Origin: a virus
Virus genome (UHGV): UHGV-0123874
Reading direction: 5' to 3' (one strand)
Length of the DNA stretch: 40,222 nt
Part shown: positions 1 through 6,000 of the stretch, in pieces
How the letters are laid out: the number at the start of each line of letters is the position of its first letter
How positions within the stretch are numbered: position 1 is the first letter of the stretch
Position numbers: made by a program

Positions 1-3000
1 CTATCACTTATTTAAGTGATATTGGTTGTCTGGAGATTCAGGGGGCCAGTCTAAACCATAAGGCAGTTGGTTTTATTATGCTGTGCGATAAATATATAAA
101 AAATAAAAACTATCTTGATGCTGTTGAAGCAGCCTCCAGCGCCGTTTCATTAGCTACAGACTCAGGGGCTGCATGGTATTTTTTAGGAGTTTCACAGCTT
201 TTAGCTGGAGATATTAATGGAGCCATTAGCTCTCAACATAAAGCATTAGAGCTATGCCCTGATTTCTCAAAAATTCACCTACAGTTAGGAGTCTGTTTGA
301 GAAGGGATAAGAAATATGAGCATGCTATTAAATCATTAACTCGTGCTACAGAAATTGATCCCAAGCTGTCCTCAGCTTACTTTCAGCGAGGCCTAGCCTA
401 CCGGGATGTTTGTAATTATAACAAAGCAGAGTATGATTTTTCCACGGCATTGAAACTAAGCCCAAAAAATAAGGCGTTCGTTGACGCCCTTAAAAATACA
501 CTTGAAGATGGAATAAGGATTAGAAATGAAAGATTAGACAAACTAAAAAAATCACTTGTTTAGCATCCTGTCTCCACCCCCCCACCACCCACCAAAAATC
601 GCAGTGTAAATATAATTAGTGGGTGGTGGGATATTTACGAAAGTTTTGACTCTAACTCACTTAGTCTCTGAGAAAGCCCCCTCATAATAAACCTGTCCAG
701 TTCTTGATCGCGGAATTGCCAAAGATCGCCAGCTTCCCTAACAATCTTAATTTCTCCAGAATCCTCCTTAGAACCGTCAGGTAACTCGCGAATCACCGGC
801 TCAAAAACATCATCCCATTTGTCGTAACCTATGAACCCATATCTCCTCCAGTCAAGTCCTTCGTCGTTAAGGATTTCCAGAACAGTCTGGACAGTCATGC
901 CTGCATGTAGCCGTTTTTCTTCATCATCAATCCATGTCCAGAATCCAATTTTTTCAGCTAGTCGCTTTGCTGCATTCATTTCCGCCTGATTGAATGGTCT
1001 TGTTGGGTCCTTAAGCCTGCCATCTGAACTAGATTGCGTTCCTCCCGCGAAAAATCCAATGTTCATTCGCAATGAAGCTGATCCAATATTATTGGTCGCA
1101 TCTGTCGAAGGATAAATATCACCGGCAAATACTGCTGGACCATTACAGTGAAGGCGAGCGCCATGAAGTCCAGCAAGATCTGCGGCTGTTCCTATCAAAA
1201 CGTGGTTATCTCCTGAAAGGCGCATAACTGAATTACTTCCTGTAGAACTAAACCCAATGAAATCCTGAGCAGTGCCGCTTGAAATAAAACCGCCAAAAAT
1301 AGAATAGTGATTACGCACGGGAGTATAAGTAGCAACTCCAGTTACCCCAGTAACGTCAATGAAACCTCCAGAATCTGCTCTAACTGAAACTCCATCTAAG
1401 TTTGAGCTGGTAATATTTAGAGAACCATGCAGGGAGCATATAACTCCGGAATTATTGCGTAAATCACTGTTAGGCATACGTGTCTGACCGGCAGTATTAT
1501 TTATTGCCATGCCGACGTTGTTTCTTATTACGCACCCATTTGCAAGCACTGTAGAGTTAATATTTTCAATGCCATTTCCTATATTTCCACGCCCAACAGA
1601 ATTAGTCATGTTTAATGATGCGCCACCTGACGCTACATATGCATGACGGTGGTTCCCGTATGAGCGAGATTGAATGGCGAAAGTAAATCCCGTATCCTGA
1701 GCAATAACACCATCAATGAGGTTACCTGAGGAAATTACCCCTTGGCACTGGGTAACTGCAGAAGCGGATCCCCAACCGTTGCGTGCTGAATTACTGGAAG
1801 CAGCACCAATCCCGACAACAATGGTCCCGCTGCGATTCGCATAAACGTTAGATCCGGAAAACCCGCTAACGCCTATATCTGATCCCAAGTTGAGAACACC
1901 GCCATCTCTGGCCACAATACCAGTATTGCCGCCATCCACACCAAAAACGTCATATTTATCAGGTCCACGACTTCCTGATGCTAACGGACGCGCTGCACCA
2001 ACAAACGCAATACCGTTAATCATTCCAAGTGATAATGAATTCTCCACCTGAACTGCAGTTGGTCCCTTCGCTGAGTCAAGAAAATGAATTACTGTCTTCA
2101 GTATTGAACCAGTCAGGGAAATGTCACCAACAGGAGGCGCTGAATTAAGAGATGTGAGCCAAGTTACTTGGTTACCTGTAACAGAAGTAACCTCCCATAC
2201 ACCAAGATGATATTCTGCTGTATCTGCACCAGACGCTCCACGCACGAGAACGTATTCCCCAACTTGAGGAATAGTTCCTGTTACGGTGGCTGTAACTATG
2301 TGGTAGTTTAGATTTTTTACTACACCATCCCAATGTTTAACTGAGAATGTTCCTGCAACCACAGAATTTACTCTGGATGCGGTGAATACCTGTGTGTTAC
2401 CTGTAATATTGATGTTTTCACCATCAATGTGCGACGAAGGTAACGTAGCTGATTCAGTGTACAGTCCGGGAGCGACGGTGATGTTAACTTTCGTATCAGG
2501 AAATCGTTTGTCATGTAGACTTAACAGAGCTTCGGACAGTGAAGAATAATCTGATGGTACATGAATGTTTAAATCGACCTTTAATGGCATCACATCTGCT
2601 ACAGTTCCACCACCCGGTCGTCCAATCATTTCAGATCCACATGGACCTGACAATTCAGCAAGTAGTTGATCCGGGTCATACTTCAGTATATTCGGGAAAT
2701 AGAACTGCTGCGCACCATATGCATCATAAACAGCCATAGAATGGCCTTGCACAGTTACGAACTTGGCAATCTTTCCGTTATATACAGGATAACCAGCAGC
2801 GTTAATGATGATTGGTTGCGAAACAGGAACGTGAGAGCCATCTTCGTTCTCCACATAAACCTGAATCTGGTTTTCAGGATTTACAGGGTCAGTGTCAATT
2901 TTACCGATATAAATTTTGCCATTGGCAACCGCTTTAAAAGAACGCGCCATAGTGAAGAGTTGAGAAGGCATTGATACGATCACATTGGCTGTAATGTCTG

Positions 3001-6000
3001 TCATTTAATTTGCTCCAGATGCAAGGAATCGCCGCAGCGTGGCTACGGTGAATTTTGGGCATAAAAAAACCCAGCCGAAGCTGGGTTGTCGTGTTGGTTA
3101 TCTGTCAGTAGTTATGTACTGAAGGAGGTAATTCTTTATTCTTAAGTCTCATCCATGCGGAAAGATTCGTTGGTCCGTCTGGCTCATTGATATCAACATC
3201 TCGTGTGTGATTGATTAAAACGTCTCTCGCCATTCCGATAACATACGAGAACTCATGACCGTAGTCGTAGCATCTGCAGGAATAGTTCGATTGAATTTGT
3301 TTTAGCGCCGGATACAGTTCGCGGAATAATGCCTGTGAGCGGTTGGCATAATCCCATAGCCATACAAGGCTGTTTGCTTCTTTTGCAGAAAGCTCGTTGG
3401 TTTTCTTCTCTTGTTTGCCGATGAACTCACCTTCAAGCACTACCCTGTGGATGTACTCTACGGCCAGCGGGATTTGTTCAATTGAAAGTTCATCAATGCT
3501 GTCAATACCAAAACGCTGATGAACCATATTGTATGCATCGTCATAGCGAAGTCCTTTCTTTCCTACCAGCATGTTTACTGCATCGCGTAGCGGCGTGCGT
3601 TCAGCTACTGAAGTTTTACCGCCAATAGCCTTCCTCTCTTGTGTGGCAGTAACCATTGCGTCATATGCGCGGATAACCTTCAGCGCAAATGCTGCGCTAA
3701 TCCACATGGCGTAGGAGTAAACAAGCTCCTTGCACACGTATGTTCCACCATATCTACCTTTCTTAGAAATGACGGGATTCTTATTCTGCATATCCGCAGA
3801 ATTAAAAATTTCATTAATCAATTCAATAGTTTCATTTCTACGCATGAAGAAAGCTGGCTGATGTTTTTCCTCCTTTCCAGACGCTACATGAAGGTCATTA
3901 AGCGAGTAACGACCCTCTGAATCCATATGAATCTTGACGTCAGAAATGATGATGCTATTAGTGCAATTTACAGCTGACTTTGCTAAGCTTGACATATCAA
4001 TAATACCTCGTAAGTTTTGTTGATACCGAAGCCCTGACTGTTCCCGCAGTTGGGGCTTCAACTTTCTGCTCTATCAGTTATATCTTTCCCTTCGTATACT
4101 TCACCTATATTGCTAATGCTGGCAGAACATCCAAGATGCTTGTATCTTATGATGTCCAACACGCAGTCACTACACAGCATCCGACCTGTTTCTTTAGAGT
4201 AAATGTATGTTTGATCAGTGTCTGATTCGCTAATGCCGCAGAAACAACATTCTTTACTCATACCATCACCCCCTCTCTCTTCAAGCTGTCCAGCACCCGT
4301 TTAATTACTTCTGCGCTAAACGATCGACACTCTTCCTTTGCTTTCTCTTCAAGGATTTTTTCTAACTTCTCTGGCATACGCAGTGTTTTTACCTTCATTG
4401 CATCCTCCGCTGTATGTGGTACGCATACATAGTATTTAGGTACGCATTGATAGTCAATAGATACCTACATATCCTGTGGTAAAAAATTATTCAGGATGCG
4501 CCGATGTCTGATCGTAAGTACAAAAACCCTCAAGTGAATCTGAGGCTTCCTGTAGAGATAAAGGAACGTCTTATTGAACTGGCTGAGGCTAATTCTCGTT
4601 CATTAAATGCTGAGATGGTAGCAGCACTTGAGGCATGGACTGAAAAAAATAAACATATTCAAGCACTAGATCTTGCAACTATAGCATCGCGGTTGATAGA
4701 GCTTGAGCATGAGGTTGAGAAGTTAAAATGTATGCATGGCAACAGTGAAAAATGAAACGTATCGCTATTTTGTTAATATTGTTCTTCTCTACAATAGTTT
4801 TCGCCAAACCAAAATCAGATAATGGCGATCTTAAAGGCCTGCAAGAACTCATGATAACTTCGAAATTTGCTGGCATGTGCGGCACAATCAAACAAATGGC
4901 AACATTTCAAGAATCAACAAAAATGCCTGGCGGAGATGAGTTCTTACAGCGTTTTCTGACCACAGAGCAAGCAAGACTAGGAATGAATCCACAGGAATTT
5001 CTTGAAGCATGCCAGAAGTCAATTTCAGCTTATACCAATTATTACAATCTAACTTCTGATAAATAATAGAAAGGATTTTATAAATAACTTTATGAAAAAA
5101 TCACTATTAATTATCCCGCTTCTGCTGGCTGGATGCGCAAAAGTAAGTGACTACCAAGCAAGTTGCGAACAACGCTATCCAAAGCTTAGTGATATGGCTA
5201 ATTGCCTTGATGCCAGCGTGAAGAACGACTCACGCATGGCATCAGCACCAACACCTAAGCTGTATGTCCTTGCTGCGAAGATGCTCGGGCAAGGTGTCGA
5301 TCAAGGCAAGATAAGTGACGCACAGGCAAGACTTGAGCTACAGAATCTTTATGTTCAATTACAAAGCCAAGAACAAGCCCAACAAATAGCACAAAGCCAA
5401 GCATTCCAGCAGGCTTTATTGAATTATCAGGCTGTAAACACAATGCAAGCGATCGAGCAAAAAGCGCGCCAGCCTGTTATAACTCAACATTACCCAACAC
5501 GCGTTGACACATATACAAACTGCAATTCAGGATTTGGAAACACGGTAACATGCAACAGTAGCAGTAATATCAGGTAGTTATATCTTATCTTTTATTGCTG
5601 TTCTGCTGTAATTTGGCTTGAAAGTATAGGGCGTATCGCATTTGCAGCATTATTTAGCGCTCTTTCATAAGCTGGCGTTCCAGTTTTAGTGTTTGCCAGG
5701 CGTAAGAGAGCATTCCTTGCTGCTTTGGACTCATACAAGCGCATCATTGCACCAAAACCAGCCTCAAGCCCCATTGATACGCCAAGGGTCGCAGTTGCGC
5801 CAATCGTCCTTATCCTGTTGGCTTGCGATTGCCCCGTCTGAGTTACTACATTTGCGGTGTCTGACCTTGCTGTTTGCTGTAGAACTTCATGAAGAGCATC
5901 AAGCTCTTTCATGTGCTTTCCAGAAAAAATAGTGTTGTAAATTTCACCGCCTGACTGAGATTTCAGCTTATTAACTTCAGTGATGAACTTGGCTGGAGAG

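What the first reader, a model, noticed from the sequence alone, without database searches (positions are those of the whole stretch)
635..3004. Chimeric tailspike: P22-type head-binding domain fused to a fibre with a self-cleaving C-terminal chaperone
The N-terminal 110 residues match the P22 gp9 head-binding domain, but the C-terminus carries an SDGRLKD motif and a domain characteristic of S74-type intramolecular chaperones, which are cleaved off after trimer folding. The central receptor-binding region does not match any tailspike I recognise, so host-glycan specificity is unknown.
Basis: partly seen in the sequence, partly recalled or inferred. Interest (0 to 1): 0.4.

Follow-up and report, generated by a model that had tools for sequence, protein, structure and literature searches.

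The report
P22-type tailspike with self-cleaving chaperone
This is an ordinary, correctly read phage tailspike gene: a P22-type virion anchor, a sugar-binding beta-helix body and a self-cleaving folding domain, a layout already known from phage CUS-3 and common in E. coli prophages.

Summary
ORF 635..3004 (minus strand, 789 aa) has a P22 Head_binding domain (aa 1-113, E=8e-66) and a Peptidase_S74 intramolecular chaperone (from aa 660, above Pfam's cut-off). SDGRLKD lies at aa 660-666. All five catalytic positions defined for T5 pb1/K1F are conserved in register: D635, R646, S659, S660, K665.

The middle is not a fibre. It is a right-handed beta-helix with an inserted beta-barrel, the usual depolymerase-type spike body, followed by a short stalk.

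The architecture is not new. The CUS-3 endosialidase spike has the same two ends, and at least 73 protein clusters carry both domains. The identical protein is already in nr, and near-identical copies are annotated "phage tailspike protein" in E. coli and E. marmotae.

The gene is a three-part mosaic. The body-plus-chaperone cassette also occurs on two other virion adaptors in Yersinia and an insect symbiont. Receptor specificity remains unknown.

One side observation is more interesting. In four of five cassette loci examined, a convergent alpha/beta-hydrolase-TPR gene follows the spike. Its distant relatives lie in capsule loci, so it may be a receptor-modifying conversion gene. In this window it is cut by an IS element.

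The parts
635..3004 (-). Tailspike gene, 789 aa plus stop codon (635-637)
   Evidence: ORF list. Same gene called on the source contig, with PF09008 + PF13884. Lies after the ejection-protein genes (P22 gp7, Inj_translocase, gp16) and the immI genes (arc/mnt, ant), as in P22-like phages.
3013..3016 (-). GGAG ribosome-binding site, 9-12 nt upstream of the ATG
   Evidence: Read directly from the upstream sequence printed.
2666..3004 (-). Head-binding (virion anchor) domain, aa 1-113, ending in the YDPDQ motif
   Evidence: Pfam PF09008, E=8e-66. 91% identical to CUS-3 siaK1 over aa 1-124. 93-98% identical to E. coli 832-aa spikes. This is the only part with near DNA matches in phages and in 1130 of 5426 E. 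coli genomes; those matches end at nt 338-343 of the gene in most rows and at nt 369 at the furthest.
2573..2665 (-). Linker/neck, aa 114-144. The recombination joint is at aa 113/114.
   Evidence: Homology to the Yersinia Gp66-adaptor protein P0003 begins at aa 114 and to P0004 at aa 135. Low model confidence with short helices.
1319..2572 (-). Receptor-binding body, aa 145-562: N-terminal cap, inserted beta-barrel (aa ~204-340, window 1985-2395), and right-handed parallel beta-helix rungs (aa ~341-562)
   Evidence: AF2 model of aa 140-565: pLDDT 88.3, pTM 0.89. Foldseek matches: K1 capsule lyase 7W1C, GH110, AlgE4/AlgE6 (TMq 0.43-0.48), GH87, GH28, PL3, P22 and Sf6 spikes. Invariant Y234, R408, D431 and near-invariant H266, W270.
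1028..1318 (-). C-terminal stalk of the mature spike, aa 563-659. Carries the folding-sensor residues D635 (1100-1102) and R646 (1067-1069).
   Evidence: aa 628-659 align to the T5 pb1 tapered triple-beta-helix region; D635=D1239 and R646=R1250. Poorly modelled as a monomer (pLDDT 26-46), as expected for an intertwined trimer.
1007..1027 (-). SDGRLKD motif, aa 660-666. Nucleophile S660 (1025-1027) and general base K665 (1010-1012). Predicted scissile bond S659|S660.
   Evidence: coordinates. (S660 aligns with T5 residue 1264, which is Ala in the S1264A crystal construct; K665 aligns with K1269). (mechanism as described in PMC4690869). S660 and D661 invariant, K665 in at least 90% of 19 homologues.
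638..1027 (-). Intramolecular chaperone domain (Peptidase_S74 type), aa 660-789, ~15.3 kDa, predicted to be released
   Evidence: Pfam PF13884. 7Y5S E=5e-31 and 4UW8 E=1e-28 over the whole domain. Model shows helices, a beta-hairpin and a terminal helix at aa 768-787. 59-64% identical to the chaperones of both the Yersinia group and the E. coli 832-aa group.
3068..3087 (-). Terminator-like hairpin plus T-run between ant and the spike gene
   Evidence: Consensus scan: 8-bp stem with 5 GC pairs, followed by TTTTT. A consensus match only; function not tested.
580..631 (-). Stable 16-bp hairpin just after the spike stop codon, between the convergent genes
   Evidence: RNA fold -29.1 kcal/mol, z=-3.35 against shuffles. 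No U-run follows, so it is not a canonical terminator.
54..563 (+). 3' remnant (C-terminal TPR half, 169 aa) of the spike-linked alpha/beta-hydrolase-TPR gene, convergent with the spike
   Evidence: 99% identical to aa 251-419 of the 419-aa protein that follows the same spike in E. marmotae CP099351. 45% identical to the Yersinia 405-aa protein in the same position. TPR_1/TPR_2 E~1e-23.
1..53 (+). Terminal 53 nt of an IS3-family (IS2-like) insertion sequence that interrupts the linked gene. The contig ends here.
   Evidence: 20,354 places in 4,695 of 5,426 E. coli genomes. Lies next to an 'IS3 family transposase, programmed frameshift' in an annotated copy. Homology to the intact gene starts at nt 54.

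Best explanation
This is the single tailspike (gp9 equivalent) of a P22-like temperate podophage of the CUS-3/Sf101/Huey clade, whose hosts are Escherichia coli and E. marmotae. It is built from three exchangeable modules. (1) aa 1-113: the P22-type head-binding domain, which docks the trimer on the tail hub. (2) aa ~114-659: a receptor-binding body made of a cap, an inserted beta-barrel, a right-handed parallel beta-helix and a short intertwined stalk. It binds, and probably depolymerises or otherwise processes, a surface polysaccharide of unknown structure. (3) aa 660-789: an S74-type intramolecular chaperone. This domain templates trimerisation of the stalk. Once the stalk is correctly folded, R646 from a neighbouring chain and D635 complete the active site, K665 activates S660, and the S659|S660 bond is cut. 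The result would be a ~68-kDa mature spike of 659 aa (P22 gp9 has 666-667) and a free ~15-kDa chaperone. Shown here: the domains, the in-register catalytic residues, the fold class, the genomic context and the mosaic ancestry. Inferred: the cleavage itself, enzymatic activity of the body, and the nature of the receptor.
For: Domains and motif. Catalytic constellation D635/R646/S659/S660/K665 = T5 pb1 D1239/R1250/T1263/S1264/K1269. These residues are invariant or present in at least 90% of 19 homologues. Beta-helix body: confident model and structural neighbours that are all beta-helix carbohydrate enzymes or tailspikes. Context: the P22 gp4/gp10/gp26/gp14/gp7/gp20/gp16 equivalents, then arc/mnt/ant, then the spike. 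The backbone is 94-96% identical in nucleotide sequence to CUS-3, 720R6, Sf101 and Kapi1. Precedent: CUS-3 siaK1 has Head_binding at 1-113 and Peptidase_S74 at 818-878. Hosts: cluster members come from E. coli and E. marmotae genomes, and an integrated copy is present in E. marmotae CP099351. Mosaic: anchor 93-98% identical to E. coli spikes whose bodies are only 22-36% identical; body 60-77% identical to Yersinia and Plautia-symbiont proteins carrying Tail_spike_N or Phage_tail_fib adaptors.
Against: No experiment: cleavage, trimer formation and glycan activity are all untested. The Pfam S74 score is modest (30.3 bits), although it is backed by E~1e-29 to 1e-31 matches to solved chaperone-bearing fibres. 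No glycosidase or lyase family matches by sequence. Only one acidic residue in the beta-helix (D431) is invariant, so a catalytic centre cannot be named and the body could be binding-only. The stalk (aa 563-667) could not be modelled as a monomer. The neighbouring gene is IS-disrupted and no integrase is present in the contig, so this particular prophage copy may not be fully functional.
Confidence: 0.85

Rival explanations
1. Same architecture, but the body is a pure adhesin. It binds a glycan without cleaving or modifying it, as the T5 pb1 tip does with O-antigen mannan.
For: No catalytic family is detected by sequence. Only D431, R408 and Y234 are invariant in the body. The C-terminal 160 aa are homologous to the non-enzymatic T5 pb1 fibre tip.
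Against: Every structural neighbour of the body is a beta-helix carbohydrate-active enzyme or an enzymatic tailspike. The characterised P22-like spikes (P22, Sf6, HK620, CUS-3) are all enzymes, by established knowledge and PMC10408124. A short-tailed phage has to get through the polysaccharide layer.
Confidence: 0.15
2. The S74 domain is a retained, non-cleaving C-terminal trimerisation domain, either inactive or used only as a permanent cap.
For: The Pfam hit is 'weak' in the precomputed tables. Cleavage has never been measured for this protein.
Against: All five residues of the proposed mechanism are present in register and conserved across homologues that are only 22-36% identical in the body. 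The domain sits at the extreme C-terminus, as in every processed example.
Confidence: 0.07
3. The receptor is a capsular (K-antigen-type) polysaccharide rather than the O-antigen, in parallel with CUS-3. The linked downstream gene would then modify that capsule. This is a sub-hypothesis about specificity and is compatible with the best explanation.
For: The spike is followed in 4 of 5 cassette loci by an alpha/beta-hydrolase-TPR gene. Distant relatives of that gene lie in Capsule_synth and NeuB/CMP-sugar loci. Its best structural-sequence relatives include the glycan O-acetyltransferases Asp2 and CsaC. CUS-3 has neuO in the same position after an S74-ended spike.
Against: All of these links are indirect and the profile E-values are marginal (5e-4 to 9e-3). 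Most Lederbergvirus spikes target O-antigen (PMC10408124). The host capsule and O types were not determined.
Confidence: 0.3

Closest known systems
CUS-3 endosialidase tailspike siaK1 (E. coli K1 prophage; also vB_EcoP-720R6)
   Same: Same phage clade and the same gene position after immI. The Head_binding anchor is 91% identical. Both end in a Peptidase_S74 chaperone with an S-D-G-x-L-K motif. Both are followed by a gene likely to modify the receptor (neuO in CUS-3).
   Different: The CUS-3 body is the endosialidase beta-propeller/beta-barrel/stalk (PF12217, PF12195, PF12219; 981 aa). Here the body is an unrelated beta-helix (789 aa). The chaperones are only 26% identical.
P22 gp9, Sf6 gp14 and HK620 tailspikes
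   Same: Homologous head-binding domain (about 72% identical to P22, 87-93% to Sf6). Right-handed parallel beta-helix body. Similar mature length (659 aa against 666-667 for P22).
   Different: Those spikes have no cleavable S74 domain; their C-termini stay on and act as built-in trimerisation domains (PMC3357383 abstract). Body sequence identity is only ~10%.
T5 L-shaped tail fibre pb1 (4UW8), Klebsiella phage Kp7 tail fibre (7Y5S) and the K1F endosialidase chaperone
   Same: The last ~160 aa (stalk end plus chaperone) are homologous (E=1e-28 to 5e-31). The full catalytic constellation is conserved.
   Different: Those are fibres, or spikes of other phage types with different anchors. Upstream of aa ~617 there is no similarity.
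Yersinia P0002/P0003 and Plautia stali symbiont P0004 prophage spikes; E. coli 832-aa prophage spikes (P0008-P0025)
   Same: P0002, P0003 and P0004 share the whole body-plus-chaperone cassette at 62-72% identity, essentially without gaps (P0003 ungapped; P0004 one 1-residue gap in 655 aa). The E. coli 832-aa group shares the anchor (93-98%) and the chaperone (~60%).
   Different: P0003 carries a Tail_spike_N (Gp66/TSP1-type) adaptor and lies in a long-tailed prophage. P0004 carries a P2-type tail-collar adaptor. The body of the 832-aa group is only 22-36% identical. All are uncharacterised.
Escherichia phage IMM-002 tail fibre (T7-like phage of CS3-expressing ETEC)
   Same: Best match among deposited phages for body plus chaperone: 33% identity over 70% of the protein, and best BFVD structural match at E=5e-29.
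   Different: Different anchor and low identity, so its receptor cannot be transferred to this spike (PMC6301781 title and abstract).

Membership tests
P22-type tailspike (Lederbergvirus/'Hueyvirus' gp9 homologue) | N-terminal head-binding domain (Pfam PF09008) ending at the YDPDQ motif | tested here: met
   PF09008 over aa 1-113, full-length model, E=8e-66. 72-93% identical to the P22 and Sf6 domains.
P22-type tailspike (Lederbergvirus/'Hueyvirus' gp9 homologue) | Encoded downstream of the ejection-protein genes and immI in a P22-like genome | tested here: met
   P22_Tail-4, Phage_stabilise, Phage_tail_NK, P22_gp7, Inj_translocase, Phage_P22_gp16, Arc and KilA-N/P22_AR_C lie upstream. The backbone is 94-96% identical to CUS-3, 720R6 and Sf101.
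P22-type tailspike (Lederbergvirus/'Hueyvirus' gp9 homologue) | Assembles as a trimer on the tail hub of the virion | not testable with these tools
   Needs expression or virion proteomics. Only monomer models were possible here.
Peptidase S74 / intramolecular chaperone auto-processing domain | Domain match above the curated threshold, at the extreme C-terminus | tested here: met
   PF13884: 30.3 bits against a cut-off of 22, aa 660-716. Whole domain aa 628-788 matches 7Y5S (E=5e-31) and 4UW8 (E=1e-28).
Peptidase S74 / intramolecular chaperone auto-processing domain | Nucleophile Ser and general-base Lys five residues later (S-x-x-x-x-K) | tested here: met
   S660 and K665 align with T5 S1264 and K1269. 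S660 is invariant and K665 is present in at least 90% of 19 homologues.
Peptidase S74 / intramolecular chaperone auto-processing domain | Upstream folding-sensor residues in the stalk (Asp and trans-acting Arg; T5 D1239 and R1250) | tested here: met
   D635 (invariant) and R646 (18 of 19) sit at identical offsets of -25 and -14 from the Ser.
Peptidase S74 / intramolecular chaperone auto-processing domain | Autoproteolytic release after trimer folding | not testable with these tools
   Requires expression of wild type against S660A and K665A mutants. Predicted products are 68.3 and 15.3 kDa.
Right-handed parallel beta-helix depolymerase (tailspike body) | Beta-helix fold of the central domain | tested here: met
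   Model pLDDT 88.3. Foldseek probability 1.0 to 7W1C, GH110 and AlgE4/6, with further matches to Sf6 and P22.
Right-handed parallel beta-helix depolymerase (tailspike body) | Identifiable catalytic residues or a glycosidase/lyase family signature | tested here: inconclusive
   No Pfam or NCBIfam family on aa 114-659. The invariant polar residues are Y234, R408 and D431 (plus H266 and W270 in 18 of 19), but they were not mapped to a site. Identity to enzymes of known mechanism is 7-13%.
Endosialidase tailspike (CUS-3/K1F type) | Endosialidase beta-propeller, beta-barrel and stalk domains (PF12217, PF12195, PF12219) | tested here: not met
   These domains are absent here and present in CUS-3 and 720R6. 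Outside the two ends there is no significant alignment to siaK1.
Tail fibre (T5 pb1-like) | Elongated fibrous shaft with a pb1-type bullet-shaped receptor-binding tip | tested here: not met
   Similarity to pb1 and Kp7 starts only at aa ~617-628. The body is a globular beta-helix.

The most novel reading that the evidence does not exclude
The spike body-plus-chaperone cassette and the convergent gene just downstream form a co-mobile two-gene 'receptor module'. The linked gene belongs to a very small, undescribed family: an N-terminal alpha/beta-hydrolase domain with invariant Ser121-Asp191-His214, plus a C-terminal TPR domain. It would be a cytoplasmic glycan O-acyltransferase or esterase that alters the polysaccharide the spike recognises, probably a capsule. 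That would give lysogens superinfection immunity, making it a functional analogue of CUS-3 NeuO built on a different fold. Its disruption by an IS in this window would then be a natural loss of conversion.
Probability: 0.3. Interest if true: 0.5.

Novelty: new member of a known kind. Interest (0 to 1): 0.17.

Why it matters
On its own it matters little. It adds one more uncharacterised receptor-binding specificity to the large catalogue of P22-like spikes, and it is already deposited and auto-annotated. It is a clean textbook example of three-module mosaicism with an exact joint at aa 113/114. It also shows one body-plus-chaperone cassette riding on three different virion adaptors in Escherichia, Yersinia and an insect symbiont. 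Practical value would come only from identifying the glycan, for example for E. marmotae typing or a depolymerase tool. The linked hydrolase-TPR gene is the more promising lead. If it is a receptor-modifying enzyme, it would define a new family of phage conversion genes and point to the receptor class.

Tried and rejected
(1) DNA searches with the whole gene against 50,697 phage records and 5,426 complete E. coli genomes matched only about the first 340 nt (369 nt at the furthest). No host or serotype could be inferred that way.

(2) NCBIfam gave no hit for the spike.

(3) The full-length monomer AF2 model was mediocre (pLDDT 66.8). Its global TM-scores were uninformative because the domains are placed arbitrarily, so the body was re-modelled alone. 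Even then no enzyme class could be singled out.

(4) P0006 looked like a chaperone-free version of the same body. It turned out to be a frameshift inside the chaperone, so that idea was rejected.

(5) I checked whether the contig is a circular phage genome. There is no terminal overlap. One end is an IS end, so the contig is most likely a prophage fragment from a bacterial assembly.

(6) I asked whether cultured Lederbergvirus phages commonly have S74-ended beta-helix spikes. Of five tested, only the endosialidase of 720R6 does, and no deposited phage matches both ends of this protein. The architecture is therefore documented mainly in prophages.

(7) P0004 could not be looked up for genomic context.

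(8) Receptor transfer from IMM-002 or VEcB was rejected because identity is only 31-33%.

(9) PHROGs and NCBIfam gave nothing specific for the linked gene beyond TPR and sub-threshold XcbB/CpsF and esterase hits.

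
Full report
OBSERVATION. Window 635..3004 holds one intact ORF on the minus strand: ATG at 3004, stop at 635-637, 789 aa. A GGAG lies 9-12 nt upstream of the start. Pfam places Head_binding (PF09008) on aa 1-113 (E=8.2e-66, full model). It places Peptidase_S74 (PF13884) on aa 660-716 (E=5.2e-7, 30.3 bits against a gathering score of 22). SDGRLKD is at aa 660-666, window 1007-1027, exactly where the S74 model begins. Sequence searches of solved structures agree. The N-terminus matches Sf6 gp14 (E=2e-64) and P22 gp9. Residues 617-788 match the Klebsiella phage Kp7 tail fibre 7Y5S (E=1e-29; 5e-31 when the C-terminus is searched alone) and T5 pb1 4UW8 (E~1e-28) (the identity of 7Y5S comes from the preprint read). 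No Pfam or NCBIfam family covers aa 114-659.

THE CHAPERONE. The T5 pb1 paper (PMC4690869) defines the catalytic site shared with the K1F endosialidase. It comprises Asp1239 and Arg1250 (the Arg coming from a neighbouring chain and acting as a folding sensor), Thr1263, the scissile/nucleophilic Ser1264, and Lys1269. In the residue-by-residue alignment these correspond in register to D635, R646, S659, S660 and K665. In an alignment of 19 homologues whose bodies fall to 22-36% identity, D635, S660 and D661 are invariant, and R646 and K665 are present in at least 90%. By homology the S659|S660 bond would be cut after trimer folding. That would give a 659-aa, 68.3-kDa mature spike and a 130-aa, 15.3-kDa chaperone. 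This step is inferred, not shown.

THE BODY. A full-length monomer model was mediocre (pLDDT 66.8). It showed aa ~145-560 as a confident stack of short strands and aa 563-667 as unmodelled, which is expected for an intertwined trimeric stalk. The body modelled alone (aa 140-565) reached pLDDT 88.3 and pTM 0.89. Its PDB neighbours are all right-handed parallel beta-helix proteins. They include the Klebsiella K1 capsule lyase 7W1C, GH110 galactosidases, AlgE4/AlgE6 epimerases (TMq 0.43-0.48), GH87, GH28, PL3, and the P22 and Sf6 spikes. Weak matches to a pyruvate-kinase beta-barrel reflect an inserted barrel at aa ~204-340. Identities are 7-13%, so the enzyme class cannot be named. The invariant polar residues are Y234, R408 and D431, with H266 and W270 conserved in 18 of 19. 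So the middle is a spike body, not a fibre. Only the last ~160 aa are related to fibre tips.

WHAT CARRIES IT. The window is ENA metagenome contig ERZ1311709 NODE_488. The spike follows the P22-type head-completion and ejection genes and an immI region (arc/mnt, KilA-N/P22_AR_C antirepressor). The backbone is 94-96% identical in nucleotide sequence to CUS-3, vB_EcoP-720R6, Sf101 and Kapi1. A 2026 preprint proposes that clade as the genus 'Hueyvirus'. The identical protein is in nr as DAT74884.1 ('MAG TPA: tail protein'). Its 90% cluster has 69 members from E. coli and E. marmotae genomes, named 'phage tailspike protein'. An integrated copy lies in the complete E. marmotae genome CP099351.

MOSAIC ANCESTRY. 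At the DNA level only about the first 340 nt (369 nt at the furthest) match any of 50,697 phage records or 5,426 complete E. coli genomes (1130 genomes match). That stretch ends just after the YDPDQ motif at aa 113/114. Per-module identities are as follows.
- Anchor: 93-98% to a family of E. coli 832-aa prophage spikes whose bodies are only 22-36% identical.
- Body: 60-77% to Yersinia proteins (P0002, P0003) and a Plautia stali symbiont protein (P0004).
- Chaperone: ~60% to both groups.
P0003 and P0004 align from aa 114 and aa 135 to the C-terminus, essentially without gaps, at 71% and 62%. They carry a Tail_spike_N (Gp66/TSP1-type) adaptor and a P2-type tail-collar adaptor respectively. P0003 lies in a prophage with a tape-measure gene. 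The body-plus-chaperone unit is therefore a cassette that moves between virion anchors, phage morphotypes and genera. [quoted passage not shown]

HOW NEW IS IT. CUS-3 siaK1, marked as experimentally characterised in its GenBank record, has Head_binding at 1-113, endosialidase domains, and Peptidase_S74 at 818-878. Its anchor is 91% identical to this one. At least 73 of the 120 best database clusters carry PF09008 plus PF13884 with many different bodies (my count). Among cultured Lederbergvirus phages the combination looks rarer. Of five spikes tested, only the endosialidase of 720R6 ends in S74, and no deposited phage matches both ends of this protein. The best deposited match to the body is the IMM-002 tail fibre at 33%. 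The verdict is a new, uncharacterised member of a known kind.

SIDE OBSERVATION: A LINKED GENE. A convergent gene lies directly downstream of the spike (window 54-563, plus strand). It encodes the C-terminal TPR half of a 405-419-aa protein that follows the spike in four cassette loci:
- the window itself;
- E. marmotae (L010/L011), 99% identical over the shared 169 aa;
- the P22-like Y. intermedia prophage L009, 45-52% identical;
- the long-tailed Yersinia prophage L008, whose copy is 98% identical to that of L009.
It is absent from a fifth cassette locus, L016. In the window the gene is cut at nt 53/54 by the end of an IS3-family (IS2-like) element, which also ended the contig.

The family is very small: 16 hits at E<=1e-10 among 5.8 billion clusters. 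Its N-terminal domain has an invariant G-x-S121-M-G-G, D191 and H214 across sequences 19-52% identical, i.e. an alpha/beta-hydrolase triad. Distant members lie next to two KpsC/KpsS-type Capsule_synth genes (L015), in a NeuB/CMP-sugar synthetase locus (L014), and next to another pectate-lyase-fold protein (L013). A profile of the domain finds, at marginal E-values (5e-4 to 9e-3), Gap2/Asp2 and SacC/CsaC among generic esterases. [quoted passage not shown] NCBIfam also gives a sub-threshold XcbB/CpsF capsular-family hit.

The gene occupies the position where P22-like phages keep receptor-modifying conversion genes. CUS-3 has neuO there (PMC3046976 abstract) and 611R6 has an OafA/YrhL O-acetylase. 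My inference, at about 0.3 probability, is that it is a polysaccharide-modifying conversion gene matched to the spike, and that the receptor may be a capsule.

LIMITS.

Noticed in passing
window 54-563 (+); L010:10443-11702, L009:10484-11701, L008:10523-11740: A convergent alpha/beta-hydrolase (invariant Ser121-Asp191-His214) plus TPR gene follows the spike in 4 of 5 cassette loci, across Escherichia and Yersinia and across podo- and long-tailed prophages. The family is very small. Distant members lie in capsule or nonulosonic-acid loci. Marginal profile hits go to the glycan O-acetyltransferases Asp2 and CsaC. It is a possible receptor-modifying conversion gene.
   Followed up: partly
window 1-53: The contig starts with the terminal 53 nt of an IS3-family (IS2-like) insertion sequence: 20,354 copies of this end in 4,695 of 5,426 E. 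coli genomes. It interrupts the linked gene at about codon 250 of 419 and explains why the assembly broke here.
   Followed up: yes
window 3068-3087 (-): Terminator-like hairpin plus T-run between the antirepressor gene (3105-4061) and the spike start. This is reminiscent of the P22 immI/gene 9 arrangement, where (from memory) gene 9 expression depends on late-operon read-through.
   Followed up: no
window 580-631: Very stable 16-bp hairpin (CCCACCACCCAC...GGTGGGTGGTGGG; -29 kcal/mol, z=-3.35) between the convergent spike and hydrolase-TPR genes. It has no U-run.
   Followed up: partly
window 4752-5066 and 5092-5577 (+): Two small ORFs on the opposite strand between arc/mnt and the gp16 homologue. 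One has a lipoprotein-like signal (MKKSLLIIPLLLAGC). Neither has a Pfam hit. They look like morons.
   Followed up: no
window 36844-40222: The far end of the contig carries early-region genes (Ead/Ea22, DUF551) and two ORFs with no family match. No integrase was found anywhere in the window, and the contig ends do not overlap.
   Followed up: no
window 635-3004 versus 5592-19363: The spike gene has 42-46% GC in every module, against ~50% for the structural-gene backbone. This fits the spike being exchanged cargo.
   Followed up: partly
P0006 (relative; 782 aa): A close relative of the body with a Tail_spike_N adaptor has a frameshift inside the chaperone, just after SSSDARLK...AAKKL. It is a likely pseudogene or sequencing error, not a chaperone-free variant.
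   Followed up: yes
L008:13118-15414: In the Yersinia long-tailed prophage, a reverse transcriptase (RVT_1) gene and an AAA_15/AAA_21 ATPase gene lie about 1.4 kb beyond the hydrolase-TPR gene, with one small gene in between. This could be a retron- or DRT-like defence pair at the prophage end.
   Followed up: no
L016:5497-8499: In another phage with P22-type portal, coat and gp4 genes, the cassette spike (Tail_spike_N adaptor) sits directly after the gp4 homologue rather than after the ejection genes, and it has no linked hydrolase-TPR gene.
   Followed up: no
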